A stretch of DNA of 12,823 nucleotides, taken from a virus. Below are positions 1-12,823 of the stretch, in pieces (position 1 is the stretch's first letter; every line of letters starts with the position of its first letter). The notes under the pieces were generated by a model, which made no database searches, was not told the DNA's origin, and was given only the letters and a program-made list of their open reading frames with translations. Both the position numbers and the translations under genes were made by a program. The DNA is taken from UHGV virus genome UHGV-1339911; one strand, 5' to 3'.

Positions 1-1272
1 AACGCCAGACAGGTCGAGACAGCAAAGCCAAAAGAGAAAACCTACAAAATGGCCGATGGCGGCGGTTTGTATCTCGAGGTTTCGGCTAAGGGTTCTAAAT
101 ACTGGCGCATGAAATACAGACGCCCCTCTGACAAAAAAGAGGATCGCCTCGCTTTTGGTGTTTGGCCCATGGTGACACTTGCTCAGGCAAGAGCAAAGCG
201 TGACGAGGCTAAAAAGCTCTTAGTGCAGGGCATTGACCCAAAAGCCGAGCAGAAAGAAGCTCAGGCTGAGAATTCGGGCGCATACACTTTCGAAACAATT
301 GCTCGTGAATGGCATGCCAGTAATAAGCGCTGGAGTGAAGACCATCGATCACGCGTTCTGCGCTATCTTGAGCTTTATATTTTTCCTCATATCGGTTCGT
401 CCGACATTCGGCAGCTTAAAACCAGCCACCTGTTAGCCCCGATTAAAAAAGTTGATGCCAGTGGCAAACACGATGTCGCTCAGCGCCTGCAACAGCGCGT
501 CACGGCCATTATGCGTTATGCCGTACAGAACGATTACATCGACTCTAATCCAGCCAGTGACATGGCCGGTGCGTTATCTACAACCAAAGCACGACACTAT
601 CCGGCTTTACCCTCTAGCCGCTTCCCTGAGTTTCTTGCACGTCTTGCTGCATATCGTGGCCGTGTAATGACAAGGATCGCGGTCGAGCTTTCCTTACTAA
701 CTTTTGTACGTTCCAGTGAGTTACGTTTCGCGCGATGGGATGAGTTCGACTTCGATAAATCTCTTTGGCGTATACCTGCAAAGCGAGAAGAAATTAAAGG
801 CGTGCGTTACTCGTATCGTGGCATGAAGATGAAAGAGGAGCATATCGTTCCTCTTAGTCGACAGGCGATGGTTTTGTTAGAGCAACTCAAGCAGATTAGT
901 GGCGATAAAGAGTTACTTTTTCCAGGAGATCACGACTCAACAAAGGTTATGAGTGAAAACACGGTAAACAGCGCATTGCGTGCGATGGGCTATGACACGA
1001 AAATTGAAGTTTGCGGGCATGGATTTAGAACGATGGCTCGTGGTGCGTTGGGTGAGTCAGGTTTGTGGAGTGATGATGCAATTGAGCGTCAATTGAGTCA
1101 CTCTGAGCGTAATAATGTGCGTGCAGCTTATATCCATACTTCTGAGCATTTGGATGAACGTCGTTTAATGGTGCAGTGGTGGGCAGATTTTCTTGATGCA
1201 AATAAAATTGAATTAATATCACCTTTTGATTACGGAAAGACGGTAATATTAAATGAAAACACCCAGCAATAG
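1..1272 (+). CDS. int: P4-family tyrosine recombinase (integrase), 5' end truncated by the window edge
   Basis: ORF track 49..1272, but the frame is open from base 1 with no stop before the ATG at 49, so the true N-terminus lies upstream. N-terminal KxYK-x-DGGGLYLEV-(x8)-W-R-x-K-YR motif is typical of P4-like integrases. C-terminal catalytic signatures HGFRTMARGAL (His-x-x-Arg) and RAAYIHT (Tyr) are present. Stop TAG at 1270-1272. Confidence 0.9.
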   Translation, partial: NARQVETAKPKEKTYKMADGGGLYLEVSAKGSKYWRMKYRRPSDKKEDRLAFGVWPMVTLAQARAKRDEAKKLLVQGIDPKAEQKEAQAENSGAYTFETIAREWHASNKRWSEDHRSRVLRYLELYIFPHIGSSDIRQLKTSHLLAPIKKVDASGKHDVAQRLQQRVTAIMRYAVQNDYIDSNPASDMAGALSTTKARHYPALPSSRFPEFLARLAAYRGRVMTRIAVELSLLTFVRSSELRFARWDEFDFDKSLWRIPAKREEIKGVRYSYRGMKMKEEHIVPLSRQAMVLLEQLKQISGDKELLFPGDHDSTKVMSENTVNSALRAMGYDTKIEVCGHGFRTMARGALGESGLWSDDAIERQLSHSERNNVRAAYIHTSEHLDERRLMVQWWADFLDANKIELISPFDYGKTVILNENTQQ

Positions 1273-1292: not shown

Positions 1293-4200
1293 TTAAATGT
1301 GATTATCCCATTCATTTTTTATTTCGTCGAATTCATTTTTAGAATTGCACATTTTTTCCCATTCCTGAATTATATTTGGTTGTACAATACCTAGACGTTT
1401 GTTGTTGCAATAAATAGATGCTGCTAATTTTGTCGCGCTAAGTTTTTTTTCTAGATAGCTTAAGTGGTCATTATTGTTAATAAATTCTTTCCCATCCTCG
1501 AATAATAGGCCAGTTAAACCGCAATGAATTTTATTCATAAACTCATCAGAAATTGTAAAATCGCTAGAGCTTATTATAAACCTGACTAAATCATAGCATT
1601 CAGGAAGACATGGATCACGATTCCAGGCTATTTTTTCACTAAGTATTGTGATAATTTCTGGTGGGTACTCTTTATTTCTTATTAGTACATATACAGAGTT
1701 TATTGCTTCAATGACTTCTGTTTTAATGAAACTATATAACCCAGAACCTATATCTTTTAATAGGTCGCTTGAATGGTTCTTTTGATTCATTAAAAGCATA
1801 GTTAGTGCAGAATTTACAGGGATTCCTGATTTTTTCATCTTTTCTATCAAGTTTGTAATATGAATAATTGATTCACTATTCAATTTATTATAGTGGATTT
1901 CTAAAATTGTAGTGATAATTCTTGTTATGTTTTTAAATCTATGTGTAAATTCTTTTGATAAATCGTCCCGTTTCTCAAGCCAAATTTTATCATTGGAAAA
2001 CCACTTATTCATTTCAGATATGATCTCAGATAAGATAGTTTCGGACGGGGTTATATGATGAAGGGCACCATTAAGTTCGTTACAATAATTGTCGTTACCA
2101 CCTGTTATAGTAACGCTATTACCATTTTGAATAGGAAAATTATATGTTTTTATAATGGAAATAAATTTATCCTGAATATTTTCATTTTCAGGGTGAAGGT
2201 TATCTATAAAGAAAAATCTATAGTAACCACTATTAATTGGAAATCCATATTCATCGCGTTTAGCCCATAGGTTTTTTATTAGTTTTGAAATATCAGACTT
2301 GTTAAGTAGATCAAGATTATACAATGTAATTAACTTTTGTGATGCTGCTTTTCTTAAATCTTGATCTTCGCTTTTTAAATCATCAATATCTTTTCTGATT
2401 TTGGAAGATGTTATTTTTTTCAATAAACCATTAGGTCGTTTGATAATTGAAGCCAGTAGACATTCAAAAGGAGTAATAAAATTATATTTTTGACCCATAC
2501 CTAAATGATCATTAGAGGGTTTCGACGGATAATCGATAAAAATATCTATGAGGGATATTTTTTGAGAGTCATTCATACTCGCTATAGTACGTCTAAGCAA
2601 ATCCTTTGTCTCAGCAAAATCATAAAACCCCTCAGAGTTATATAACTTAAGAAGAAGGGTTATTATATCTTTTTTCTTTTCAAAAGAAACTTTTGTTACT
2701 AGTCTTGATAATATTTCAGGAATGATTGATAGGGTGGATAACTCTATTTCAAGCTTATCGCTAAGTCTTTCATCTATTTTTTTTAAGATGATTTGTTCGT
2801 ACTTTTTGAAGTATCCATCAAATAAATCTTCAACTTTTTTTCTTTCTAATAAAGAGAGTCTACCACGGTTAAAAAGACTTTTTGCTTTATCTTTATTAAA
2901 TGTTCTAAATATTGCAAAAATAGCGAATTCAGGGGAGTATGGATATATATGTCGGGATGCGTTTTCAACTATGCCACTAAAAATATTCATTCCAGGTATA
3001 TGGAAAGGCAGTCCAAGTTCTTCTGCTAGCAATAGAAAGTTGAAAGCATCTAAGGATTTAAGTTCCGCGGGACTCCCACCAAAATAAGTTGTCACAGTTC
3101 TTCTGTTAAGATCAAAATCAGTATCCTTTGAATTCTCAGATATACCTTGTGGGGATTCTAGTTTGATTTCTAAATACTTAATTTCGTTTTCTGGATCGCT
3201 ACGATATTGAGATAAAGTTGCTAATCTAGAATTGTATTCTGAAGTGTAATCATCGTTCTTGTTATTATTTTTCAAGCTTCTCTTGAACATTCTTAATATA
3301 TAAATGCAATAAGCTTCTTGGGACTCACTTGAATAGTCGATGTTCCTTGATGATAAAAGACTATTTCGGCGAATAGTTGATAAAGTTTCTTCAAGAAGAT
3401 TAATGGCTTCATCGAGCATGCCAAACTCAGCAAGTAGTCCCGCTCTTTTAATTTCATACTGTGGAAGAAGTTTATTTGTTTCCCAATTTGAAAGTTTTGT
3501 TCTGGCTTCATCAAAGTTCAATCTAAAATAAGAATGTAGGATATTCTCGTAATAGAATTCAGATTTAACTTCTGGAGTTAGTCTTTCTAAATTGGGAATC
3601 AGTAAATGATTTAATTCTTTCCATTTTGCTGTGAGATTCTCTTGGCGACAAAATTTCATTAAATTAATAACGATGGCTGAATATTTATCATCCAGATCTT
3701 TGTTTATTATGTTGTTAGTGTATTCGTCTTTATATTTTTCTGTGAGTTTAAATAAAAACTCTGCTGTGTCATTAAATATAGGTAGTAATGCTTTATTTAA
3801 TCGCCAAGTTAACTCATAACCAAAATTAATTTCTGCATATTTTTCCCAAATCACATCGTAGGTAACTACTGCCAACCACTCTCTAGTATCACGCCAAAGA
3901 TTACTGCGATTAGATTCAGGCAAAATAAGCCAGTTAGGATAAGATTTTCTTAATGATCCCCACTCAATAATGCATCGATTTATTTTTTCCATTTTTATTT
4001 CAGGGGTGTCATCGAAAGAAATGTGTTCTCGATTTTTTATTATTGGCCACTCTATTAAATTTTCTTTGTTTTTTGTTTCGTAGAGGGACTCTATAAAATG
4101 TTGATGAGCTAAATAATGATCTTTGCCAAAGTCCCCAAGTAAACTCAAGTCCACGATTGATATGTTTCTTTTTTCAAGCAATTTGCGCTGTGCTTCATTG

Positions 4201-4922
4201 AATGAGAAAAGACCTATCAGATAAATTTTTGGTGAGTTTTCTGCTCCAAGATTATCTCTTATCCAGCCAATCCAGTTAAGGAAATTAGGATCATCACCAG
4301 AAAAACCAATCAAACAAAGAGTATTTTCAATGAGTGATTGCTGTACTGTATTTACAAATGGTGAGTTATCTAAAGGATATTTCCTGTAATCTTCTTCAGT
4401 AATTATAAAAGGCCGCTCTGATGGGAAGCTTCCGTGAAGTTTGATGATCCTAGGTCTTTCAGCATTCATCAAATCACTTTTATTCAGTACCACATCATAT
4501 TTTCTGGAGTCAACATATACACATGCACGCTCAAGCAACGTGTCATAGTTAGTTGTAAAAACATCAACCCATGGTAACGATAAAAGAGAGATGTGTAATT
4601 TAGATGGTTCATACTCTTTATCAGGAACATGATCCATTATCAACTTATCAAGTGTTGCACGGCCGAAGGCGGCTTGTACCTCATCGCCAAGTTTGAGTAC
4701 ATTTAAATATTTGTTTAAATTTTTCTCACAGTAAATATTTTCATAAAAAATATCGCCTAAATCATTCCACATTGGGAATTGTCGTGCCTTGTTTGTTAAA
4801 GGTTTTGCATTTCGACTAAATCCAGCACCAATGAGTATTGCTGCGCGACCATCCCAAAGGCGAGATGATATATTATTTAATAGCGGTTTGATTTTTTTCT
4901 TATTTGTCATTATATATTCCAT
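1293..4922 (-). CDS. Large SIR2-domain fusion protein (defence-associated sirtuin / DSR-like); candidate single-gene NAD-depleting anti-phage protein with an unassigned ~950-aa C-terminal region
   Basis: Uninterrupted 1209-aa ORF. N-terminal ~260 aa carry SIR2_2-type motifs in canonical order: AAILIGAGFS (aa 27-36), VFTTNYDTLLE (aa 121-131, putative catalytic Asn125), IIKLHGS (aa 159-165, putative catalytic His163), CLIGFSGDDPNF (aa 203-214). No Walker A/P-loop seen anywhere in the protein. Gene is visibly AT-rich compared with its neighbours and lies between int and the late operon. Start-codon choice (M1 at 4920-4922 vs M5) is uncertain; no strong SD for either. Confidence 0.8.
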   Translation of the reverse strand: MEYIMTNKKKIKPLLNNISSRLWDGRAAILIGAGFSRNAKPLTNKARQFPMWNDLGDIFYENIYCEKNLNKYLNVLKLGDEVQAAFGRATLDKLIMDHVPDKEYEPSKLHISLLSLPWVDVFTTNYDTLLERACVYVDSRKYDVVLNKSDLMNAERPRIIKLHGSFPSERPFIITEEDYRKYPLDNSPFVNTVQQSLIENTLCLIGFSGDDPNFLNWIGWIRDNLGAENSPKIYLIGLFSFNEAQRKLLEKRNISIVDLSLLGDFGKDHYLAHQHFIESLYETKNKENLIEWPIIKNREHISFDDTPEIKMEKINRCIIEWGSLRKSYPNWLILPESNRSNLWRDTREWLAVVTYDVIWEKYAEINFGYELTWRLNKALLPIFNDTAEFLFKLTEKYKDEYTNNIINKDLDDKYSAIVINLMKFCRQENLTAKWKELNHLLIPNLERLTPEVKSEFYYENILHSYFRLNFDEARTKLSNWETNKLLPQYEIKRAGLLAEFGMLDEAINLLEETLSTIRRNSLLSSRNIDYSSESQEAYCIYILRMFKRSLKNNNKNDDYTSEYNSRLATLSQYRSDPENEIKYLEIKLESPQGISENSKDTDFDLNRRTVTTYFGGSPAELKSLDAFNFLLLAEELGLPFHIPGMNIFSGIVENASRHIYPYSPEFAIFAIFRTFNKDKAKSLFNRGRLSLLERKKVEDLFDGYFKKYEQIILKKIDERLSDKLEIELSTLSIIPEILSRLVTKVSFEKKKDIITLLLKLYNSEGFYDFAETKDLLRRTIASMNDSQKISLIDIFIDYPSKPSNDHLGMGQKYNFITPFECLLASIIKRPNGLLKKITSSKIRKDIDDLKSEDQDLRKAASQKLITLYNLDLLNKSDISKLIKNLWAKRDEYGFPINSGYYRFFFIDNLHPENENIQDKFISIIKTYNFPIQNGNSVTITGGNDNYCNELNGALHHITPSETILSEIISEMNKWFSNDKIWLEKRDDLSKEFTHRFKNITRIITTILEIHYNKLNSESIIHITNLIEKMKKSGIPVNSALTMLLMNQKNHSSDLLKDIGSGLYSFIKTEVIEAINSVYVLIRNKEYPPEIITILSEKIAWNRDPCLPECYDLVRFIISSSDFTISDEFMNKIHCGLTGLLFEDGKEFINNNDHLSYLEKKLSATKLAASIYCNNKRLGIVQPNIIQEWEKMCNSKNEFDEIKNEWDNHI

Positions 4923-4963
4923 CTGTTGTTCATGGCTATACTGAGTGTGCCGCAGTTGCTTCG

Positions 4964-4969
4964 ATTATA
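4964..4969 (-). promoter_or_regulatory. Candidate -10 hexamer (TATAAT on minus strand) about 42 bp upstream of the SIR2-like gene start
   Basis: Minus-strand sequence reads ...GGTCAAAATTTGCTTATAATCGA... ahead of the ATG at 4922. No convincing -35 element; based on the hexamer match only. Confidence 0.3.
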
Positions 4970-5502
4970 AGCAAATTTTGACCGCAGGGACATCATTACG
5001 AATGAAATTTGCACATCTCGGATTATCGTACATATCTATTGTTGAAAAAACATGCTTTCACTGCAACCCTCACTCGCTTCGCAAGGCGTTTTCAATTCAA
5101 ATTCAAACATGGTCTGCGACCGTACGGTATCTGGTGCTGGTCAAGATAAAAAGGTTGATGAAACGTATAGCTGTATCATGCTCACTTTGTATGACAAAGC
5201 GTGCGTGCTAACTGTATATGTGCAGCTTTCCACTGTTATTGCGGAGAACCTGATATTTAATAGGCTATTATCCCCTCAATAGTTGTCCATACCTCCTAAC
5301 AGTACAGCATTATTTGGAAGGGAGTTCTCTTTATCGTATTGATTTTACCTCAACACCTGCGCTGATATATAAGGCTGAGGTTACCATTTTCTTCTTCATC
5401 GCGAGCAGCCCCGCCCGCCTGCCCGCTTCGCTTAACAGACTGGTTTTCATGCACCCCGTAAATCGTCTCAGAAGCCACCACACAAGGGCTTTCGCGTCAA
5501 AA

Positions 5503-5537
5503 ATGGCGCATGAGACTAATGCGTTTTCATGCGCCAT
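5503..5537. repeat. Perfect 11-bp inverted repeat (ATGGCGCATGA ... TCATGCGCCAT) with 13-bp spacer
   Basis: Read directly: 5503-5513 is the exact reverse complement of 5527-5537. Lies in the apparently non-coding stretch between the cargo gene and ogr. Confidence 0.6.
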
Positions 5538-5581
5538 AGATATGCACTCATACGCTCTCAGGCCAGCCAGGGAAAAGGCGT

Positions 5582-5606
5582 AAAAAATCCCGGTACAGGA
5601 CCGGGA
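5582..5606 (-). terminator. Rho-independent terminator ending the sid-psu-ogr late operon
   Basis: 7-bp GC-rich stem (TCCCGGT / ACCGGGA, 5588-5594 and 5600-5606) with 5-nt loop, followed on the minus strand by a run of 6 T (complement of A 5582-5587). Sits 22 nt downstream of the ogr stop. Confidence 0.55.
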
Positions 5607-5628
5607 CTACGTGGGCGTATTTTGCTAA

Positions 5629-5901
5629 TCAGACAGGAATTTGCTGACGGCTTGACAGCTTTGACGCGGAGCCATAGCGGTTGAGAGTTTGCTGTTGTTT
5701 TTCAGGCATTTGTGCTTTGTCTGATTCCCGTTCATTGCGCCAAGGCTTCATAATTATCGTATCCACGCTTTCCAGAGCGGTAAATGTGCAGGAACATTCC
5801 AGATTCTGGCACTGATACCATGAGCGTTTAACCGATGGAGCTTCATAGGCACTGGTTCTGGCGTGAGCGACCGTCCCACATTCAGGACACTTCAGGGCCA
5901 T
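5629..5901 (-). CDS. ogr: Ogr/Delta-family zinc-finger late-gene transcriptional activator (single Ogr-like unit, 91 aa)
   Basis: MALKCPECGTVAHARTS...YQCQNLECSCTF...ESV matches the Ogr/Delta Cys4 zinc-finger signature (C-x2-C ... AHARTS ... QCQN-x2-C). I place the start at the internal ATG 5899-5901, which has a strong SD (AAGGAGG about 8 nt upstream) and sits immediately after the psu stop; the ORF-track start at 6003 overlaps psu and lacks an SD. Confidence 0.85.
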   Translation of the reverse strand: MALKCPECGTVAHARTSAYEAPSVKRSWYQCQNLECSCTFTALESVDTIIMKPWRNERESDKAQMPEKQQQTLNRYGSASKLSSRQQIPV

Positions 5902-5902
5902 A

Positions 5903-6457
5903 TCAGTACCCTCCTTTTTCATTAAGTCGGTTAAGGCGGGCCAGGAAAACTTTATGTTGTGCTGGGGTGAAACTGGCTGAAGCATCAGCGCACATTGATG
6001 CATCCACCGTTAATCCGGTTTCGTCGATAATGCTCTTGTATGCTGCTGAAATTACCGGAGTACGCACTTCCGTTTGTCGGGCTACAGCGGTTCGTAATAT
6101 TTTCATTGCCGCCTCAAGCCCGTATGGAGCGCAAAGAAAAGGAGCCAGAGCGTCAGTGAGTGCATCACCATGCTCGCTCATGAAGTTTTCCGTTGCGCTT
6201 GTAACACAACTCTCCAGCACAATCTGGTGAGCATAAAGACCATCCCGTGCAGCACAGTTAATCTGCCATTCGAGGACTGCAAGACGCTCACGAAGATCCT
6301 CAAGCTGGCTGGCATATGCTGCCAGTTTTTCTTCAGTATCCAGCAGAGCCGCCAGACGAAGCTGGCAGGTACTTTGCGTATTACGTAGTGTCAGCCAGCT
6401 TTTTATCGCCGAGCGGTAATCGTTGAGTGCTTCCTGAGTAATGCTTCCGGCATTCAT
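5903..6457 (-). CDS. psu: Psu-like protein (polarity suppression / capsid decoration protein of P4-type satellites)
   Basis: 184 aa. Segments FMSEHGDALTDALAPFL and the C-terminal FTPAQHKVF resemble P4 Psu as I recall it (FMQQHGTALAAALAPEL, FTPAQNMIF). Start overlaps the sid stop (ATGA), implying translational coupling. Confidence 0.75.
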   Translation of the reverse strand: MNAGSITQEALNDYRSAIKSWLTLRNTQSTCQLRLAALLDTEEKLAAYASQLEDLRERLAVLEWQINCAARDGLYAHQIVLESCVTSATENFMSEHGDALTDALAPFLCAPYGLEAAMKILRTAVARQTEVRTPVISAAYKSIIDETGLTVDASMCADASASFTPAQHKVFLARLNRLNEKGGY

Positions 6458-7206
6458 TTCTTCTCGCCCCCTTTAACCATGTCACGCTGTTTAAGCATCC
6501 GTGAACGCGCTGCAGGGCTGGGGGATTGTCTGGCATCTTGGATGGCTTTATCGTCCGCATAAATGCTGATCCCCGGCAGGGTAATATCATCCGTTGAAGA
6601 TACGTTACAGGACAGTGCCGGAGTGGTGAGTTGCTCGCTGATAAATTGCTTCAGCACACTTTCGGGGTCGTTTACGGTATGAACTACACCGATAACAGCA
6701 GAAGCGCTTCGGCCCAGAGTCATTTTCAGCAGTCCAAGGATCTGAATAAGTTTCTGGCCGTGTTCCTTCATAAACTCATTCCAGAGCCACACTGCATGAG
6801 TTTCAATCAGGCGATTATGCTCACTGATGTAGTGGTTTGCAGCATCCGCAGTTTTCCAGGGCAGGAATTCATTTTCTGCCGCCTGAGCTGCCAGCAAATC
6901 TTCGAACTCATCCAGTGTTTCGCGTCCGAGGGCGATTTCTGCCCGCAGTTTTTTCATGCGTGGCGTCATATTTCCCTGATTCTCACGAAACAGGTTTCGC
7001 CATTCATCATTAAGCGCCTGCGTTTCCGTTTTTGTATCTTCCTGACGTTTACGGATAGTTTCAATCATTGCAGCAGCTTCAGTTTGTTTTCGCCGTTCTT
7101 CCTGCCAGACAGCTTTTGCTACCTTAACTTTATCCACCGCTTCGCGAATTTTCGGTGGGAGGGAGGGTGTAATGTTTGCATCAGGGATCTGGTTAACAGT
7201 AGTCAT
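6454..7206 (-). CDS. sid: Sid-like capsid size-determination (external scaffold) protein
   Basis: 250 aa, charged and helix-prone, first gene of the leftward operon, immediately upstream of psu and ogr/delta. Size and position match P4 Sid (~244 aa). Assignment is mainly from synteny and size; I cannot confirm sequence similarity without a search. GGAG lies 5 nt before the ATG. Confidence 0.6.
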   Translation of the reverse strand: MTTVNQIPDANITPSLPPKIREAVDKVKVAKAVWQEERRKQTEAAAMIETIRKRQEDTKTETQALNDEWRNLFRENQGNMTPRMKKLRAEIALGRETLDEFEDLLAAQAAENEFLPWKTADAANHYISEHNRLIETHAVWLWNEFMKEHGQKLIQILGLLKMTLGRSASAVIGVVHTVNDPESVLKQFISEQLTTPALSCNVSSTDDITLPGISIYADDKAIQDARQSPSPAARSRMLKQRDMVKGGEKK

Positions 7207-8118: not shown

Positions 8119-8379
8119 ATGCATGATATTTCTGTTTCTGCGCCAGCTCCGGCTGCGCCATTATTTCCTGTGCTGAACCAGCATGAGCGATTTTTACGTC
8201 TTCCCGAGGTGATGCATTTATGCGGCTTGTCCCGCTCAACTATATACGACCTGATAAGCCGCGATGCTTTCCCGAAGCAGATCCCGCTTGGTGGTAAAAA
8301 TGTTGCCTGGGCACAGTCAGAGGTAAGCGCATGGATGGCGGATCGTATAAGTGCCCGCGGACGGGGATGTGATGCATAA
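8119..8379 (+). CDS. alpA: AlpA/Vis-family phage DNA-binding regulator (excisionase-like HTH)
   Basis: 86 aa. [53 protein letters not shown] is the typical AlpA/Vis helix-turn-helix core. SD GAGGG sits 7 nt upstream of the ATG. Confidence 0.85.
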
Positions 8380-8473
8380 TGATGCCTGAACGCATTAATC
8401 CCCTTTTTTCTGGCTTGCATCCTGCAGTCATTTCCAGGTATAGTTTTCCCGCTGCCGCAAAATCGGCTGCCGG

Positions 8474-8725
8474 GCGTAGGAACCCGAGTTACTTATTGGC
8501 GACACCAGACGCGCCGTGCGTCTTTTTTTACGTCGTTGCTCAGGCACACCCATTTTTCGGGCTGCGGTGCTTATACCTTAGTCCCTGTCAGATAATGGTG
8601 GTCCGGGCGGGGCAGCCTTCGGGCTGGCCGGTTTCCAATAAGGCCGGTATTCCTACCCCCGTCTGGGCTACCACCCATGAGCGTAGGAACTCCGGTGGTG
8701 GCATTTACCGCGACTTATTGGAGGT
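8474..8725 (+). promoter_or_regulatory. Candidate P4 CI-RNA-like immunity leader (seqA / seqB / seqC-like complementary repeats)
   Basis: Direct repeats GCGTAGGAAC...ACTTATTGG at 8474-8499 and 8681-8721. Between them, 8635-8658 (CCAATAAGGCCGGTATTCCTACCC) is approximately their reverse complement. The second direct repeat overlaps the GGAGG SD of the downstream small gene. The region is GC-rich and its conceptual translation (first ~118 aa of ORF 8379..8924) is low-complexity. Confidence 0.35.
8507..8529 (+). terminator. Intrinsic terminator-like hairpin plus T7 tract inside the alpA-downstream leader
   Basis: Stem AGACGC / GCGTCT (8507-8512 and 8518-8523), loop GCCGT, followed by 7 T (8523-8529). 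Lies inside the ORF-track ORF 8379..8924, arguing against that ORF's 5' part being translated. Confidence 0.5.
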
Positions 8726-8732
8726 TGCCCTT

Positions 8733-8924
8733 ATGGCTACGATCCTCGCCCCTTCACATCCTCAATTTATATTTGTTTTTGCCGCCGTTCGTCGTGCAGA
8801 ACGTAAACCACGTATCAGTATGCTGCGTATCGTCGCCAGCAATGAGCATCATGCACGTCTTTCACTGGTCCATGAGTATGTGCTTTGCCTTGCTGCTCGC
8901 CTGCCTGTCCGGGAGGTGATGTGA
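8733..8924 (+). CDS. Small early-operon protein, possibly Icd-like (host cell division inhibitor family)
   Basis: 63-aa short form starting at ATG 8733 with GGAGG 8 nt upstream ([63 protein letters not shown]). The C-terminal ...ARLPV... pattern resembles Icd-like proteins of P4-type elements as I recall them. Family assignment is tentative. Confidence 0.45.
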
Positions 8925-9145: not shown

Positions 9146-9474
9146 TGAAATCACGCACCCTTTCCCTTTCCCTTTCACTTCGGGTAGCGTTGTATCGCCG
9201 CGCGGTAGCCTGCGCCTGGTTGAGTGCCTGCTATCAGCAAAACCGCCATCTGCAGCTCACTCTGGATGAAATTGAAACCGCTATTGCCCGTGAGCTTGAA
9301 GGATTTTATCTGCGACAGCACGGGCAAACAAAAGGCATGGAAATCGCCTGCGCTCTGCTTTCAGACCTGATGGAATCCGGCCCTCTAATGTCCTGTCCCG
9401 CACTCTCCCAGCTCGGAATAGCCGTAATGGATGAGTTATGCGTCCGTCACATCAAAAAGCCGGTTTTACACTGA
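9145..9474 (+). CDS. Hypothetical small protein (109 aa), early operon, immediately upstream of the primase gene
   Basis: Start overlaps the previous stop (TAATG) with GGAGGTGG upstream. Position is analogous to the small genes preceding alpha in P4, but homology was not verified. Confidence 0.55.
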
Positions 9475-9488
9475 GGGAGAACTGCGTC

Positions 9489-11819
9489 ATGTCAGGAATG
9501 AAAGTCAGTCAGGCCGTGAAGGCTGCCCGCGGTCACTGGGCTAAGATTCTGCCAGCGCTGGGCGTGAATATATTGAAAAATCGCCATCAGCCTTGCCCGG
9601 TCTGTGGCGGTAAAGATCGTTTTCGCTTCGACGATCAGGAAGGACGCGGAACATGGTTCTGCAATCAGTGCGGTGCCGGGGATGGTATAGCGCTTGTCAC
9701 CAGGGCACTGAATGTGGATATCAGTGAAGCAGCTGACAGGATACATGGACTGACACATGGTCTGTCTGTAGTTAATTCCGAAGTCAGGGCGTTAACCGCC
9801 GATACCGATAGCGGGAAAGATGCAGCAGCACTTGCCGCGCGACTGCTGCAAGCCTCACGTGAATCTGCCGGAAACACTTATCTTACACATAAAGGTTTCC
9901 CGGAGCATATTTGCCATGAGCTGACTTCAGCTCATAAAACCGGTGGGGTGATGTTCCGCCCCGGTGATTTGATCGTCCCGCTCTATAACGCTGACGGGGA
10001 GCTGGTGAATATTCAGCTTATCAGTGGCAATGGTAGCAAGTGTTTTCTTAAAGGAGGTCAGGTTAAGGAGGCCTATCATCTGATAGAAGGGGGCGGGAGT
10101 TCTTTAAGAAGGATGTGGATTGCGGAAGGTTACGCCACGGCGCTTACCATTCATCATCTGACAGGAGAAGCCGTCATGGTGGCATTTTCGTCGGTCAACT
10201 TTCTTTCTCTGGCCAGCGTTGCCCATAACAAGTATCCGGGATATCAGTTAATTATTGCAGCGGACCGCGATCTGAATGGTTCAGGCCAGAACAGGGCTGA
10301 AACTGCTGCAAAAGCGTGTCAGTGTGACATTGTGCTGCCACCGGTTTTTGGTGACTGGAATGATGCGCTTACCCAATACGGAGAGGAATCCACCCGGAAG
10401 GCAATTCTTGAGGCTTTGAAGCCACATAATGCCAGTCCTTTCGACACAATGAGTGAAGCAGAATTCACAGCGATGAGTGTCAGCGAAAAAGCTCAGAGGG
10501 TTCGGGAGCATTACAGGGATGCACTGGCGGTTGATCCGAACGGGCAGCTTTTATCCCGCTACGAGTCTGGAGCGTGGAAAGTGATTTCTCAGTCAGATTT
10601 TTCCCGAGATGTCGCAGCCCTTTTCCAGCGCCTCGGTGCACCGTTTTCCTCAGGAAAAATTGCCTCACTGGTGGAAACATTAAAGTTAATTGTTCCGCAG
10701 CAGCAAAATCCGGCACGTCATCTGATTGGTTTTCGTAATGGCGTCCTCGATACGCGAACAGGGCTTTTTAGTCCGCACTGTAAAGAGAACTGGCTGCGTA
10801 CCCTGTGTGAAGTCGATTTCACGCCACCGGTAAAGGGGGAAACGCTTGAAACTCATGCCCCGGCATTCTGGCGCTGGCTGGACCGGGCTGCCGGACACAA
10901 GCCAGCTAAACGCGACATTATTCTTGCGGCGTTATTTATGGTGCTGGCGAACCGCTATGACTGGCAGCTCTTTCTGGAAGTGACTGGCCCTGGTGGAAGT
11001 GGCAAAAGTATTCTGGCTGAAATTGCGACCATGCTTGCTGGAGAGGATAACGCCACCTCTGCGACCATTGAAACGCTGGAGTCCCCGCGAGAACGTGCGG
11101 CTCTGATAGGTTTTTCTCTTATTCGCCTGCCTGATCAGGAGAAGTGGAGCGGCGACGGCGCCGGGCTTAAGGCTATAACTGGTGGCGATGCGGTATCGGT
11201 GGACCCCAAGTATCAGAATGCTTATTCAACACATATTCCGGCGGTTATCCTGGCCGTAAATAATAATCCTATGCGCTTCACTGATCGTAGTGGTGGTGTG
11301 TCCCGCAGGAGAGTGATTCTGCATTTTCCTGAGCAGATAGCACCGGAAGAACGCGATCCGCAGCTGAAAGATAAAATTGCTCGAGAACTGGCTGTGATTG
11401 TTCGCCAGCTCATGCAGCGTTTCAGCGATCCGATGAGCGCCAGAACATTGCTTCAGTCGCAGCAGAATTCAGATGAGGCTCTCACCATCAAGCGTGATGC
11501 TGATCCAGCATTTGATTTTTGTGGCTATCTTGAGGCATTACCTGACACCAACGGTATGTTTATGGGGAACGCTAATATTGTCCCACGCCAGCCACGTACC
11601 TACCTTTACCATGCCTACCTCGTATACATGGAGGCTAATGGCTATAAAAACATCCTGAGTCTTACGATGTTTGGCAAAGGGTTGCCAGTCATGCTGAAGG
11701 AGTACGGGCTACATTATGAGAAACGGCGAACTAATCAGGGAATGCAAACTAACCTCACTTTGAAAGAGGAGAGTAATGCAGACTGGCTGCCCAAGTGTGA
11801 TGAGCCAATATTAAAATAA
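9489..11819 (+). CDS. P4 alpha-type bifunctional DNA primase/helicase (zinc-binding primase domain, TOPRIM, P-loop helicase)
   Basis: Zn-finger CPVCGG...FCNQCG; TOPRIM-like acidic motifs (WIAEGYATALT, IIAADRD); Walker A VTGPGGSGKS. I prefer the start at ATG 9489 (MSGMKVSQ...), preceded by GAGGGAGA, over the ORF-track start at 9438. Confidence 0.9.
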   Translation: MSGMKVSQAVKAARGHWAKILPALGVNILKNRHQPCPVCGGKDRFRFDDQEGRGTWFCNQCGAGDGIALVTRALNVDISEAADRIHGLTHGLSVVNSEVRALTADTDSGKDAAALAARLLQASRESAGNTYLTHKGFPEHICHELTSAHKTGGVMFRPGDLIVPLYNADGELVNIQLISGNGSKCFLKGGQVKEAYHLIEGGGSSLRRMWIAEGYATALTIHHLTGEAVMVAFSSVNFLSLASVAHNKYPGYQLIIAADRDLNGSGQNRAETAAKACQCDIVLPPVFGDWNDALTQYGEESTRKAILEALKPHNASPFDTMSEAEFTAMSVSEKAQRVREHYRDALAVDPNGQLLSRYESGAWKVISQSDFSRDVAALFQRLGAPFSSGKIASLVETLKLIVPQQQNPARHLIGFRNGVLDTRTGLFSPHCKENWLRTLCEVDFTPPVKGETLETHAPAFWRWLDRAAGHKPAKRDIILAALFMVLANRYDWQLFLEVTGPGGSGKSILAEIATMLAGEDNATSATIETLESPRERAALIGFSLIRLPDQEKWSGDGAGLKAITGGDAVSVDPKYQNAYSTHIPAVILAVNNNPMRFTDRSGGVSRRRVILHFPEQIAPEERDPQLKDKIARELAVIVRQLMQRFSDPMSARTLLQSQQNSDEALTIKRDADPAFDFCGYLEALPDTNGMFMGNANIVPRQPRTYLYHAYLVYMEANGYKNILSLTMFGKGLPVMLKEYGLHYEKRRTNQGMQTNLTLKEESNADWLPKCDEPILK

Positions 11820-12180: not shown

Positions 12181-12212
12181 CCTTCGCACCTTCGCACCTT
12201 CGCACCATCGGA
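12181..12212 (+). repeat. Tandem 8-bp repeat (CCTTCGCA) x3 plus a degenerate fourth unit
   Basis: Read directly: CCTTCGCA at 12181-12188, 12189-12196, 12197-12204, then CCATCGGA. Confidence 0.8.
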
Positions 12213-12221
12213 ACATCAATA

Positions 12222-12244
12222 GACGTCAACGGACGTTTTTTTTA
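12222..12244 (+). terminator. Terminator-like hairpin followed by a T9 run, with no annotated upstream ORF
   Basis: GACGTC-AACG-GACGT stem-loop immediately followed by nine T (12236-12244). Could end a small RNA or a short unannotated transcript. Confidence 0.4.
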
Positions 12245-12270
12245 TGACTGAAATCCGCGCCACACAAGGC

Positions 12271-12317
12271 TTTTCGCTATTTTTCGCTCAACCTAAGTCA
12301 ACCTACATCAACTTACT
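12271..12317 (+). repeat. 10-bp-phased direct repeats: TTTTCGCT(AT/CA) x2 then TCAAC(C/T)TA x3
   Basis: TTTTCGCTAT 12271-12280, TTTTCGCTCA 12281-12290; TCAACCTAAG 12288-12297, TCAACCTACA 12298-12307, TCAACTTACT 12308-12317. Helical-turn phasing suggests a protein-binding array. Confidence 0.6.
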
Positions 12318-12409
12318 GATGTGGATACAGCTACAGCTGCGGCTATATCCCGATTCGATAATGTTTGTACCCACACAAAACCCTTGAAAGGCTACAAGGC
12401 TGAAATTGT

Positions 12410-12595
12410 CTAAACCATAGAGATGATTTTTATGATCCAGTCTTTCTCTTGTTGAGATAGTTCCAGTTTGCTCACTCGTGTTAAGAAGGTATTGATCACC
12501 TGAACATCCGAATTGGTGAGCCTATTTAATAGAGCGGGTGGTATACCTTTACTAACAATTGCTTTGCGGTGACTTTCGTAGTTTTTATTACTCAT
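12410..12595 (-). CDS. Small hypothetical protein (61 aa)
   Basis: ORF with a good SD (GAGGA 6 nt upstream of the ATG at 12593-12595). No recognisable motif; could be a fragment or a small regulator. Confidence 0.4.
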   Translation of the reverse strand: MSNKNYESHRKAIVSKGIPPALLNRLTNSDVQVINTFLTRVSKLELSQQEKDWIIKIISMV

Positions 12596-12823
12596 TGGTG
12601 ATCCTCAAATATCATTGTATAGCGGCATTGATCGTTTCCAGCAACCTTTACTTACTCACTTCAAACTGCATCCTCGTAGACTGTTCCACTACAATAATCG
12701 AAAAGGCGCGGATGTCCATTCAGGTATCCCGCTAATACGTATAGCAATAACAATGGTTTATGCGGTGCGCGCTGTTCACCCTTATGCCAGATTTTTATAT
12801 TGGCAATTGCCTGCTGTAGCGAT

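What the first reader, a model, noticed from the sequence alone, without database searches (positions are those of the whole stretch)
1293..4142. About 950-aa C-terminal region with no recognisable catalytic motifs: possible divergent phage-sensing domain
From aa ~270 to 1209 I see no P-loop, nuclease, protease, TIR or other signature; it is Lys/Glu/Leu/Asn-rich with a helix-favouring composition and repeated amphipathic stretches. In DSR2 the C-terminal helical repeat region is reported to bind a phage structural protein that triggers the NADase. If this region is unrelated to the DSR1/DSR2 sensors, it would be a new trigger-recognition module on a known effector.
Basis: inference. Interest (0 to 1): 0.6.

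Follow-up and report, generated by a model that had tools for sequence, protein, structure and literature searches.

The report
Sensor tail of annotated Dsr2 sirtuin
The long helical tail belongs to an already catalogued anti-phage protein (Dsr2) carried on a P4-like satellite in E. coli, but it shows no detectable relationship to the sensor of the Bacillus "DSR2" whose phage trigger is known, so what it senses is still open.

Summary
Residues ~285-1209 of the 1209-aa ORF (1293..4922, minus strand) have no Pfam domain and no catalytic motif, and are confidently predicted as all-alpha.

The region is not a new module. The whole protein matches the curated Dsr2 models end to end (PADLOC PDLC02184, 1699 bits; NCBIfam NF041819, 1439 bits against a cutoff of 1400). 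RefSeq already annotates 99.9%-identical copies as dsr2. The tail alone finds 2,518 cluster representatives, nearly all with the same SIR2-plus-tail layout. The gene is the sole cargo of the defence hotspot of a P4-like satellite at tRNA-Leu.

All mechanistic knowledge of "DSR2" (tail-tube trigger, DSAD1 inhibitor) comes from B. subtilis DSR2, which shares only the SIR2 domain with this protein:
- hhalign SIR2 vs SIR2: 99.9%.
- hhalign tail vs tail: 1%. A positive control between two Bacillus-type tail clusters gave 99.9%.
- B. subtilis-type DSR2 does not hit either Dsr2 model.

Most likely this is an autoinhibited NADase released when the solenoid binds a phage protein of unknown identity. 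The gene is already known and of modest interest.

The parts
1293..4922 (-). dsr2 ORF, 1209 aa from the first ATG. The probable true start is M5 at nt 4910, giving 1205 aa as annotated in RefSeq. It is the only cargo gene of the satellite's hotspot.
   Evidence: ORF list and translation. PADLOC Dsr2 1698.7 bits full length. NCBIfam NF041819 1439.3 bits against cutoff 1400. RefSeq 'dsr2' at 99.9% identity. M5 conserved in >=95% of relatives. GC 31.7% against 47.4% for the rest of the window.
4074..4895 (-). N-terminal SIR2 (ThsA-like, SIR2_2) NADase domain, aa ~10-283. Catalytic-site residues are N125 (nt 4548-4550) and H163 (nt 4434-4436).
   Evidence: Pfam SIR2_2 E 3e-24. Family profile against PDB: B. 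subtilis DSR2 aa 24-300 at E 8e-22, then 7uxt and ThsA. TTNYD and KLHG align with the TTNYD and KVHG of B. subtilis DSR2. H171A is the inactivating mutation used in the DSR2 papers. N125 and H163 are >=95% conserved.
4005..4073 (-). Low-confidence linker between SIR2 and the helical region, aa ~284-306.
   Evidence: pLDDT dip and absence of secondary structure in both models.
3156..4004 (-). Helical module 1, aa ~307-589. It consists of stacked antiparallel helix pairs. It is the best conserved part of the tail and holds most of the invariant Trp/Arg/Glu/Pro residues (W321, R325, P329, W331, P335, W373, R374, R426, E459, W480, E499, S534).
   Evidence: DSSP and pLDDT 82-96. Conservation. Median identity 30%.
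3063..3155 (-). Poorly predicted loop with a possible beta-hairpin, aa ~590-620.
   Evidence: pLDDT below 50. Short strands appear only in the full-length model.
2088..3062 (-). Helical module 2 (aa ~621-825) followed by a more irregular stretch (aa ~826-945) that carries the conserved W886...P895 motif.
   Evidence: DSSP. Conserved residues. Median identity 25-27%.
1296..2087 (-). C-terminal HEAT/ARM-like helical array, aa ~946-1209. It is the most variable part of the protein and the best candidate for the specificity-determining surface.
   Evidence: Weak profile hits to CAND1 and designed armadillo repeats at profile positions 1059-1165. Regular helix-turn-helix pattern with pLDDT ~90. Median identity 21%, with highest column entropy at aa 1001-1150. 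The role in specificity is inference.
49..1272 (+). P4-type tyrosine integrase. It marks the left end of the satellite, beside tRNA-Leu in the matching genomes.
   Evidence: RefSeq annotation of near-identical loci.
5629..7206 (-). P4 late genes: Delta/ogr-like zinc finger, polarity suppression protein Psu, and a Sid-like gene. Together with the integrase they bracket the cargo slot that holds dsr2.
   Evidence: RefSeq annotation. ORFs.
8451..8678 (+). P4 immunity region RNAs: isrK (8451-8528) and C4 antisense RNA (8591-8678).
   Evidence: Rfam matches above gathering score: 72.1 bits against 50, and 82.3 bits against 45.
9438..11819 (+). P4 alpha-type primase-helicase.
   Evidence: RefSeq annotation. 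ORF.

Best explanation
The region is the C-terminal ~925 residues of a bona fide Dsr2-family defence protein. Dsr2 here means the family defined by NCBIfam NF041819 and PADLOC Dsr2. The gene is the single cargo of the defence hotspot of a P4-like satellite integrated at tRNA-Leu in E. coli.

The tail is a non-enzymatic, all-alpha solenoid with TPR-like and HEAT/ARM-like helix pairs. Its most likely role is twofold: to hold the N-terminal SIR2 NADase inactive, and to bind a phage-made protein during infection. Binding would release the NADase, deplete NAD+ and abort the infection.

Shown here: family membership, an intact catalytic site, the solenoid fold, the conservation gradient and the mobile-element context. 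Inferred by analogy with other SIR2-plus-solenoid defence proteins: the activation mechanism.

The trigger is unknown. It should not be assumed to be a tail tube protein, because the tail shows no detectable homology to the B. subtilis DSR2 sensor.
For: Membership:
- Full-length matches to both curated Dsr2 models.
- RefSeq annotation of 99.9%-identical genes as dsr2.

Effector:
- SIR2_2 domain present.
- N125 and H163 conserved in >=95% of 154 relatives. They align to the catalytic TTNYD and KVHG of B. subtilis DSR2.

Tail is a solenoid, not an enzyme:
- Confident all-alpha model (pLDDT 86, pTM 0.86).
- Foldseek top 50 are all karyopherin, CAND1, SF3B1 or condensin-type solenoids.

Sensor-like evolution:
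- SIR2 median identity is 58%, the tail 21-30%, and the last ~260 aa are the most variable.
- The tail is almost always fused to SIR2: 163 of 190 collected relatives. The rest are N-truncated fragments apart from one possible effector swap.

Defence context:
- Low-GC single-gene cargo between the integrase and the Psu/Delta genes of a P4-like element.
- Other E. coli strains carry different cargo genes in this slot of the same element (DEAD/DEAH helicase with a HamA/DUF1837 protein, or S8 peptidase with AAA ATPase).

Precedent for the mechanism:
- B. subtilis DSR2 uses a HEAT-like C-terminal solenoid to capture the tail tube protein and activate SIR2 (PMC11850899, PMC10973363).
- The Dsr1 TPR sensor recognises major capsid protein (PMC12803255).
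Against: - No experiment on this protein or on its close relatives was found in the held literature. Every mechanistic DSR2 paper found concerns the B. subtilis protein.
- The analogy therefore rests on a protein whose sensor is not detectably homologous.
- Oligomeric state, autoinhibition and ligand could not be tested.
- The NCBIfam score is only just above its equivalog cutoff (1439 against 1400).
- That the database Dsr2 models descend from the DSR2 tested by Gao et al. 2020 is from my memory. That paper could not be read here.
Confidence: 0.7

Rival explanations
1. The tail is a very diverged true homologue of the B. subtilis DSR2 MID/CTD sensor. It works the same way: the protein forms a tetramer, the tail tube protein is captured between two HEAT-like arms, and DSAD1-like proteins can inhibit it.
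For: - With the full-length model, the best 44 Foldseek PDB hits are all B. subtilis DSR2 chains. Alignments span about 1,110-1,290 columns at E 7e-17 to 3e-11. SIR2-only chains of the same entries reach only ~1e-9.
- The gross layout is the same: SIR2, then an all-alpha region ending in HEAT-like repeats.
- In a family-profile search of PDB, the B. subtilis DSR2 SIR2 domain is the top hit.
Against: - TM-scores of the full-length hits are only 0.22-0.35.
- hhalign of a 154-sequence tail profile against a 68-sequence B. subtilis-type tail profile gives probability 1.0%, P 0.055. The same method links two B. subtilis-type tail clusters that BLASTP cannot join at 99.9%, E 2e-35, over 665 columns.
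- A near-identical B. subtilis DSR2 relative hits neither Dsr2 model.
- B. subtilis DSR2 has a mixed alpha/beta linker domain after SIR2. This model has only helices there.
- The SIR2 match to B. subtilis DSR2 (80.1 bits) is no better than the match to 7uxt (79.5 bits).
Confidence: 0.12
2. The tail is mainly a scaffold for oligomerisation and autoinhibition. Activation comes from a cue other than direct binding of a phage protein, for example a nucleic acid, a nucleotide-derived signal, or loss of a host factor.
For: - No ligand is known for this family.
- The best conserved part of the tail (aa 307-590, with many invariant Trp/Arg/Glu) looks more like a structural or regulatory core than a diversifying surface.
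- ThsA, whose SIR2 domain is about as close as that of B. subtilis DSR2, is activated by a small molecule. That point is established knowledge cited in PMC10973363.
Against: - No nucleotide-binding or SLOG-like domain is present.
- The fold is a protein-binding solenoid class.
- It is a single-gene system with no partner gene that could make a signal.
- The C-terminal array is highly variable, as expected for a surface tracking phage proteins.
Confidence: 0.15
3. The ORF is a decaying or non-functional passenger gene, and the tail has no function.
For: - The allele is rare, found in 4 of 5,426 complete E. coli genomes.
- It has atypically low GC.
Against: - The 3.6-kb frame is uninterrupted.
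- The four copies are 99.9% identical.
- Catalytic residues and about 70 family-wide residues are intact.
- The full-length HMM match has no truncation.
- Low GC and patchy distribution are normal for defence cargo.
Confidence: 0.03

Closest known systems
Dsr2, 'anti-phage defense-associated sirtuin Dsr2' (NCBIfam NF041819; PADLOC PDLC02184). From memory, this family descends from the DSR2 named by Gao et al., Science 2020.
   Same: - End-to-end match, same length (~1,200-1,220 aa) and same SIR2-plus-helical-tail architecture.
- Relatives at 45-84% identity in Enterobacter, Providencia, Serratia, Cronobacter and other genera are named Dsr2 by NCBI.
- The identical gene is annotated dsr2 in RefSeq.
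   Different: Nothing of substance: this is a member. The NCBIfam score is only 39 bits above the equivalog cutoff. This allele is rare in E. coli.
Bacillus subtilis 29R DSR2 (Garb et al. 2022; PDB 8K98, 8WKN, 8WY8 and others).
   Same: - It works alike in outline: an N-terminal ThsA-like SIR2 NADase with the same N/H catalytic pair.
- It is followed by a long all-alpha region that ends in HEAT-like repeats.
- It is a single-gene abortive-infection system.
   Different: - About 200 aa shorter (1,005 aa).
- The tail has no detectable sequence or profile homology and no specific fold match.
- It has an alpha/beta linker domain that is not predicted here.
- It does not match the Dsr2 HMMs. NCBI names its relatives only 'SIR2 family protein'.
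- Its trigger (SPR tail tube protein) and inhibitor (DSAD1) therefore cannot be transferred to this protein.
Dsr1 and the Avs7 TPR sensor.
   Same: SIR2 effector fused to a large helical-repeat sensor. The sensor recognises a phage structural protein, the major capsid protein (PMC12803255).
   Different: No hit to either PADLOC Dsr1 model at E<=1. The tail family found here is tied almost exclusively to SIR2.
ThsA (Thoeris).
   Same: The SIR2 domain is of the same subfamily: PADLOC ThsA 4.9e-28, and PDB ThsA chains at E 1e-10 to 1e-18.
   Different: No SLOG domain and no ThsB partner. The C-terminus is a solenoid of ~925 aa instead.

Membership tests
Dsr2 (NCBIfam NF041819 / PADLOC PDLC02184) | Full-length match to the curated family model, above its cutoff | tested here: met
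   NF041819 (equivalog) scores 1439.3 bits against cutoff 1400, aligning aa 8-1205 to model 1-1215. PDLC02184 scores 1698.7 bits, aligning aa 5-1207 to 3-1221 of 1222.
Dsr2 (NCBIfam NF041819 / PADLOC PDLC02184) | N-terminal SIR2 domain with an intact catalytic Asn/His pair | tested here: met
   Pfam SIR2_2 at E 3e-24. N125 and H163 are present and >=95% conserved.
Dsr2 (NCBIfam NF041819 / PADLOC PDLC02184) | Stand-alone single-gene system located in a defence island or mobile-element hotspot | tested here: met
   It is the only gene between the integrase and the Delta/Psu genes of a P4-like satellite. Other strains carry different cargo genes in the same slot.
Dsr2 (NCBIfam NF041819 / PADLOC PDLC02184) | Confers phage resistance through NAD+ depletion | not testable with these tools
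   Needs plaque assays and NAD+ measurements.
B. subtilis-type DSR2 (PDB 8K98 family) | Homologous SIR2 domain | tested here: met
   Profile against PDB gives E 8.3e-22 over aa 6-284 vs 24-300. hhalign gives 99.9%, E 5.5e-31.
B. subtilis-type DSR2 (PDB 8K98 family) | Homologous MID (linker plus helical bundle) and HEAT-like CTD, which form the tail-tube-binding sensor | tested here: not met
   - hmmsearch of the tail HMM against B. subtilis-type proteins gives a best score of 5 bits.
- hhalign tail vs tail gives probability 1.0%, P 0.055. The positive control gives 99.9%.
- The B. subtilis-type protein misses both Dsr2 HMMs.
B. subtilis-type DSR2 (PDB 8K98 family) | Activated by siphophage tail tube protein, inhibited by DSAD1, and tetrameric | not testable with these tools
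Needs biochemistry.
Dsr1 / Avs7-type TPR sensor | Match to the Dsr1 family models over the C-terminal sensor | tested here: not met
   No PADLOC Dsr1 model appears among the hits at E<=1.
ThsA (Thoeris) | SIR2 followed by a SLOG/STALD signal-binding domain, with an adjacent thsB gene | tested here: not met
   ThsA models match only aa 5-236, the SIR2 part. No SLOG domain is found. There is no neighbouring TIR gene.

The most novel reading that the evidence does not exclude
The name 'DSR2' covers two independently assembled receptors. The enterobacterial Dsr2 family carries a ~925-aa composite TPR/HEAT solenoid with no evolutionary relationship to the B. subtilis DSR2 sensor. It recognises a different, still unidentified phage component. 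A few relatives, such as P0051, may have moved this same sensor onto a non-SIR2 effector. If so, tail-tube sensing is being wrongly transferred by annotation to thousands of genes, and a widespread sensor family is open for trigger discovery.
Probability: 0.55. Interest if true: 0.45.

Novelty: already known. Interest (0 to 1): 0.3.

Why it matters
The gene itself adds nothing new. It is a catalogued Dsr2 sitting in a well-known kind of satellite hotspot.

What is useful is a caution and a target. Everything known about how 'DSR2' senses phage (tail tube capture, DSAD1 mimicry, the cryo-EM structures) comes from a Bacillus protein whose sensor region is not detectably homologous to the one in the family that NCBI and PADLOC label Dsr2. 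Mechanism should therefore not be transferred by name.

The tail-defined family is large, at about 2,500 clusters at 50% identity. Its members can be expressed in E. coli and tested against coliphages, which makes it a tractable system for finding a new phage trigger. Because this copy rides on a P4-like satellite, its trigger presumably has to spare the helper phage. That last point is inference.

Tried and rejected
1. First hhalign run used a bad cut. The string I searched for to split SIR2 from the tail was absent, so the cut was wrong. I redid it. The 'B. subtilis-type' set in that run had been chosen by SIR2 similarity only. BLASTP clustering then showed it was a mixture: 3 true B. subtilis-type tails and 52 of another cluster. 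The weak signal (probability 9.2%, P 0.0036, 427 columns) came from that mixed profile. I do not rely on it. Clean profiles gave 1.0% and 0.8%.

2. Homologue search with the B. subtilis DSR2 SIR2 domain. This returned only short fragments of up to 483 aa and no full-length proteins. I replaced it with a scan of genome contigs and a search with the tail alone.

3. Hidden enzymatic domain in the tail. Rejected: no Pfam, PADLOC or NCBIfam domain, no motif, and only solenoid fold matches.

4. Internal sequence repeats. None detectable.

5. Phage-encoded relatives of the tail. tblastn against 50,697 phage records found no match.

6. Promoter and terminator scans around the gene. Counts were at or below those of shuffled sequence, so they are not informative.

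7. Reading Gao et al. 2020. The paper is not held. Literature searches for work on the enterobacterial Dsr2 or its trigger found nothing.

Full report
**1. What is there**

The window holds one very long ORF on the minus strand, 1293..4922, of 1209 aa. The flagged interval 1293-4142 is aa 261-1209 of that ORF. The ORF has 31.7% GC, against 47.4% for the rest of the window.

Its neighbours identify the element as a P4-like satellite:
- a P4-type integrase at 49-1272;
- Delta/ogr-like, Psu and Sid-like genes at 5629-7206 on the minus strand;
- the P4 immunity RNAs isrK and C4, both above Rfam gathering scores, at 8451-8678;
- an alpha-type primase-helicase at 9438-11819.

In near-identical E. 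coli genomes the element sits next to tRNA-Leu and the ahr/idnK genes. The long ORF is the only gene between the integrase and the late genes. In other strains the same slot of the same element holds other cargo genes, annotated as a DEAD/DEAH helicase with a HamA/DUF1837 protein, or an S8 peptidase with an AAA ATPase. This is the pattern of a satellite defence hotspot. That P4-like satellites carry such a hotspot near cos is stated in PMC11364771.

**2. Checking the observation**

- Pfam sees only SIR2_2, at aa 121-256.
- No Walker A, HEPN, HExxH, GxSxG or CxxC motif occurs after aa 270.
- The composition is Leu/Ile/Lys/Glu/Asn/Ser-rich.

I made two AlphaFold2 models from a 34-sequence alignment: aa 10-1209 (pLDDT 83.7) and aa 285-1209 alone (pLDDT 86.0, pTM 0.86). 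Both are almost purely helical after aa ~305. Low confidence is confined to the SIR2-tail linker and a loop at aa ~590-620.

Three small corrections apply.
- The SIR2 fold ends near aa 283.
- The likely start codon is M5.
- The 'repeats' are structural helix pairs with no detectable sequence periodicity.

**3. What it is**

The whole protein matches both curated Dsr2 models from end to end. PADLOC PDLC02184 gives 1698.7 bits, aligning aa 5-1207 to model positions 3-1221 of 1222. The NCBIfam equivalog NF041819 gives 1439.3 bits against a cutoff of 1400, aligning aa 8-1205 to 1-1215.

RefSeq annotates the 99.9%-identical gene in four E. coli genomes as 'dsr2: anti-phage defense-associated sirtuin Dsr2'.

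A search with the tail alone found 42 clusters. They are ~1,200-1,290 aa long and carry N-terminal SIR2_2, apart from a few shorter or partial entries. Several are named Dsr2 by NCBI.

A tail-only profile was scored against 1.84 billion cluster representatives. It found 2,518 hits at E<=1e-3 and 1,371 at E<=1e-30. In nearly all of the best 150, the tail starts at residue ~280-350 of a 1,200-1,320-aa protein.

An HMM of the SIR2 part hits 163 of the 190 proteins collected. The rest are N-terminally truncated fragments, apart from one protein, P0051, which has a different N-terminal domain.

So the tail is a large, established family that is locked to SIR2.

**4.

All mechanistic papers on 'DSR2' that I could find concern the 1,005-aa protein of B. 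subtilis 29R. That includes the tail tube trigger, the DSAD1 inhibitor, and the cryo-EM structures of the tetramer with its linker, helical-bundle and HEAT-like domains. I tested whether that sensor is the same as this one.

(a) Sequence against profile. A profile of this family against all PDB sequences finds B. subtilis DSR2 first. The match covers only aa 6-284 against 24-300, which is the SIR2 domain, at 80.1 bits. That is no better than 7uxt at 79.5 bits.

(b) The reciprocal test. I recovered B. subtilis-type proteins from genomes. One of them, from locus L002, scores 2,119 bits against the solved chain over its full length. It hits neither NF041819 nor PADLOC Dsr2.

(c) Profile against profile. 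I compared a 154-sequence alignment of this family with a 68-sequence alignment of true B. subtilis-type proteins.
- SIR2 vs SIR2: probability 99.9%, E 5.5e-31.
- Tail vs tail: probability 1.0%, P 0.055, over 87 columns.
- Reversed-sequence controls: P ~0.65.

The method does have the power to see remote tail homology. The B. subtilis-type tail and the tail of 52 other SIR2 proteins, which BLASTP cannot link, align at 99.9%, E 2.2e-35, over 665 columns. This family's tail against those same 52 gives 0.8%.

The protein also shows no hit to the PADLOC Dsr1 models. The Dsr1 sensor is reported to be homologous to the Avs7 sensor and to recognise major capsid protein.

Conclusion of this section: the two proteins called DSR2 share a ThsA-like SIR2 domain and the general class of their tails (alpha-solenoid). 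I found no evidence that the sensors are homologous.

**5. How it most likely works**

Shown here:
- The SIR2 domain has its catalytic Asn/His pair, N125 and H163, conserved in >=95% of relatives.
- The tail is a confident, non-enzymatic solenoid.
- There is a conservation gradient. SIR2 has 58% median identity, aa 285-590 has 30%, the middle 25-27%, and aa 946-1209 has 21%. Column entropy is highest at aa 1001-1150.
- The system is a single gene on a mobile element.

Inferred: as in B. subtilis DSR2 and Dsr1, the solenoid keeps the NADase off and binds a phage protein made during infection. Binding opens the SIR2 site, NAD+ is depleted and the infection aborts.

I expect the conserved N-proximal helical module (aa ~307-590, rich in invariant Trp/Arg/Glu) to handle coupling and assembly, and the variable C-terminal array to set specificity. 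This is an inference from the conservation pattern alone.

The trigger is unknown. Tail tube sensing is possible but has no support here.

**6. Comparison, novelty and verdict**

The protein is a member of the database-defined Dsr2 family, and every testable membership feature was met. It works like B. subtilis DSR2 in outline, but it fails the membership test for that protein's sensor.

The gene is therefore already known and annotated, and the finding as written (a possible new trigger-recognition module) is not new.

The residual interest is that a widespread, E. coli-tractable sensor family has no known ligand. It also shares a name with a structurally solved protein from which its mechanism cannot safely be copied.

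I rate interest at 0.3. The most novel reading still open is that the two DSR2 sensors are independent and have different triggers, which I put at probability about 0.55.

Noticed in passing
Protein P0051 (1,234 aa), found; not in the window: This is the one full-length relative whose ~205-aa N-terminal domain is not SIR2 and has no Pfam hit. It begins MSIQINSWYYVMKKIEVLDKIKIFLSSSMDPGKQLERRQ... The rest of the protein is this same tail (843 bits). It may be an effector swap on the same sensor.
   Followed up: partly
Loci L006-L064, for example L007 in Bacillus velezensis and L027 in Amphritea atlantica: 52 proteins of ~920-1,190 aa have a SIR2 domain like that of B. subtilis DSR2 and a tail that BLASTP does not link to it. 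hhalign shows the tails are homologous over 665 columns (99.9%). The two representatives scanned (from L007 and L027) hit the PADLOC Dsr1 and Dsr2 models only over the SIR2 part. The family related to the solved DSR2 therefore looks much broader than the annotation suggests.
   Followed up: partly
Locus L002 (Virgibacillus alimentarius) 3992-6946, and proteins P0268-P0339: Proteins nearly identical to the structurally solved B. subtilis DSR2 are named only 'SIR2 family protein' by NCBI. They miss the NCBIfam and PADLOC Dsr2 models. The name in the literature and the name in the databases refer to different families.
   Followed up: yes
window 8451-8528 and 8591-8678 (+): There are clear Rfam matches to isrK and to the C4 antisense RNA (the P4 CI immunity RNA). 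Overlapping ORFs listed there, such as 8379-8924, are probably not all coding.
   Followed up: partly
window 4923-5628: A ~700-bp stretch between dsr2 and the Delta-like gene has no convincing ORF. It contains only 76-89-aa GTG, TTG or ATG frames and none is annotated in RefSeq. By position it should hold the satellite's cos site and the dsr2 promoter. Promoter and terminator scans were uninformative.
   Followed up: partly
window 12191-12823: The low-GC right end (~39-42% GC) lies beyond the primase gene. It diverges from two of the four closest genomes (matches end at 12190) and is interrupted by about 3.5 kb in a third, strain GmM077. There the element is followed by a 2-kb hypothetical gene and a phosphorothioated-DNA-binding restriction endonuclease. 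This may be a second variable cargo site.
   Followed up: partly
window 4910-4922 (-): The ORF's first ATG (4922) lies four codons upstream of the Met that is conserved across the family and used by RefSeq (4910). Neither has an obvious Shine-Dalgarno sequence.
   Followed up: partly
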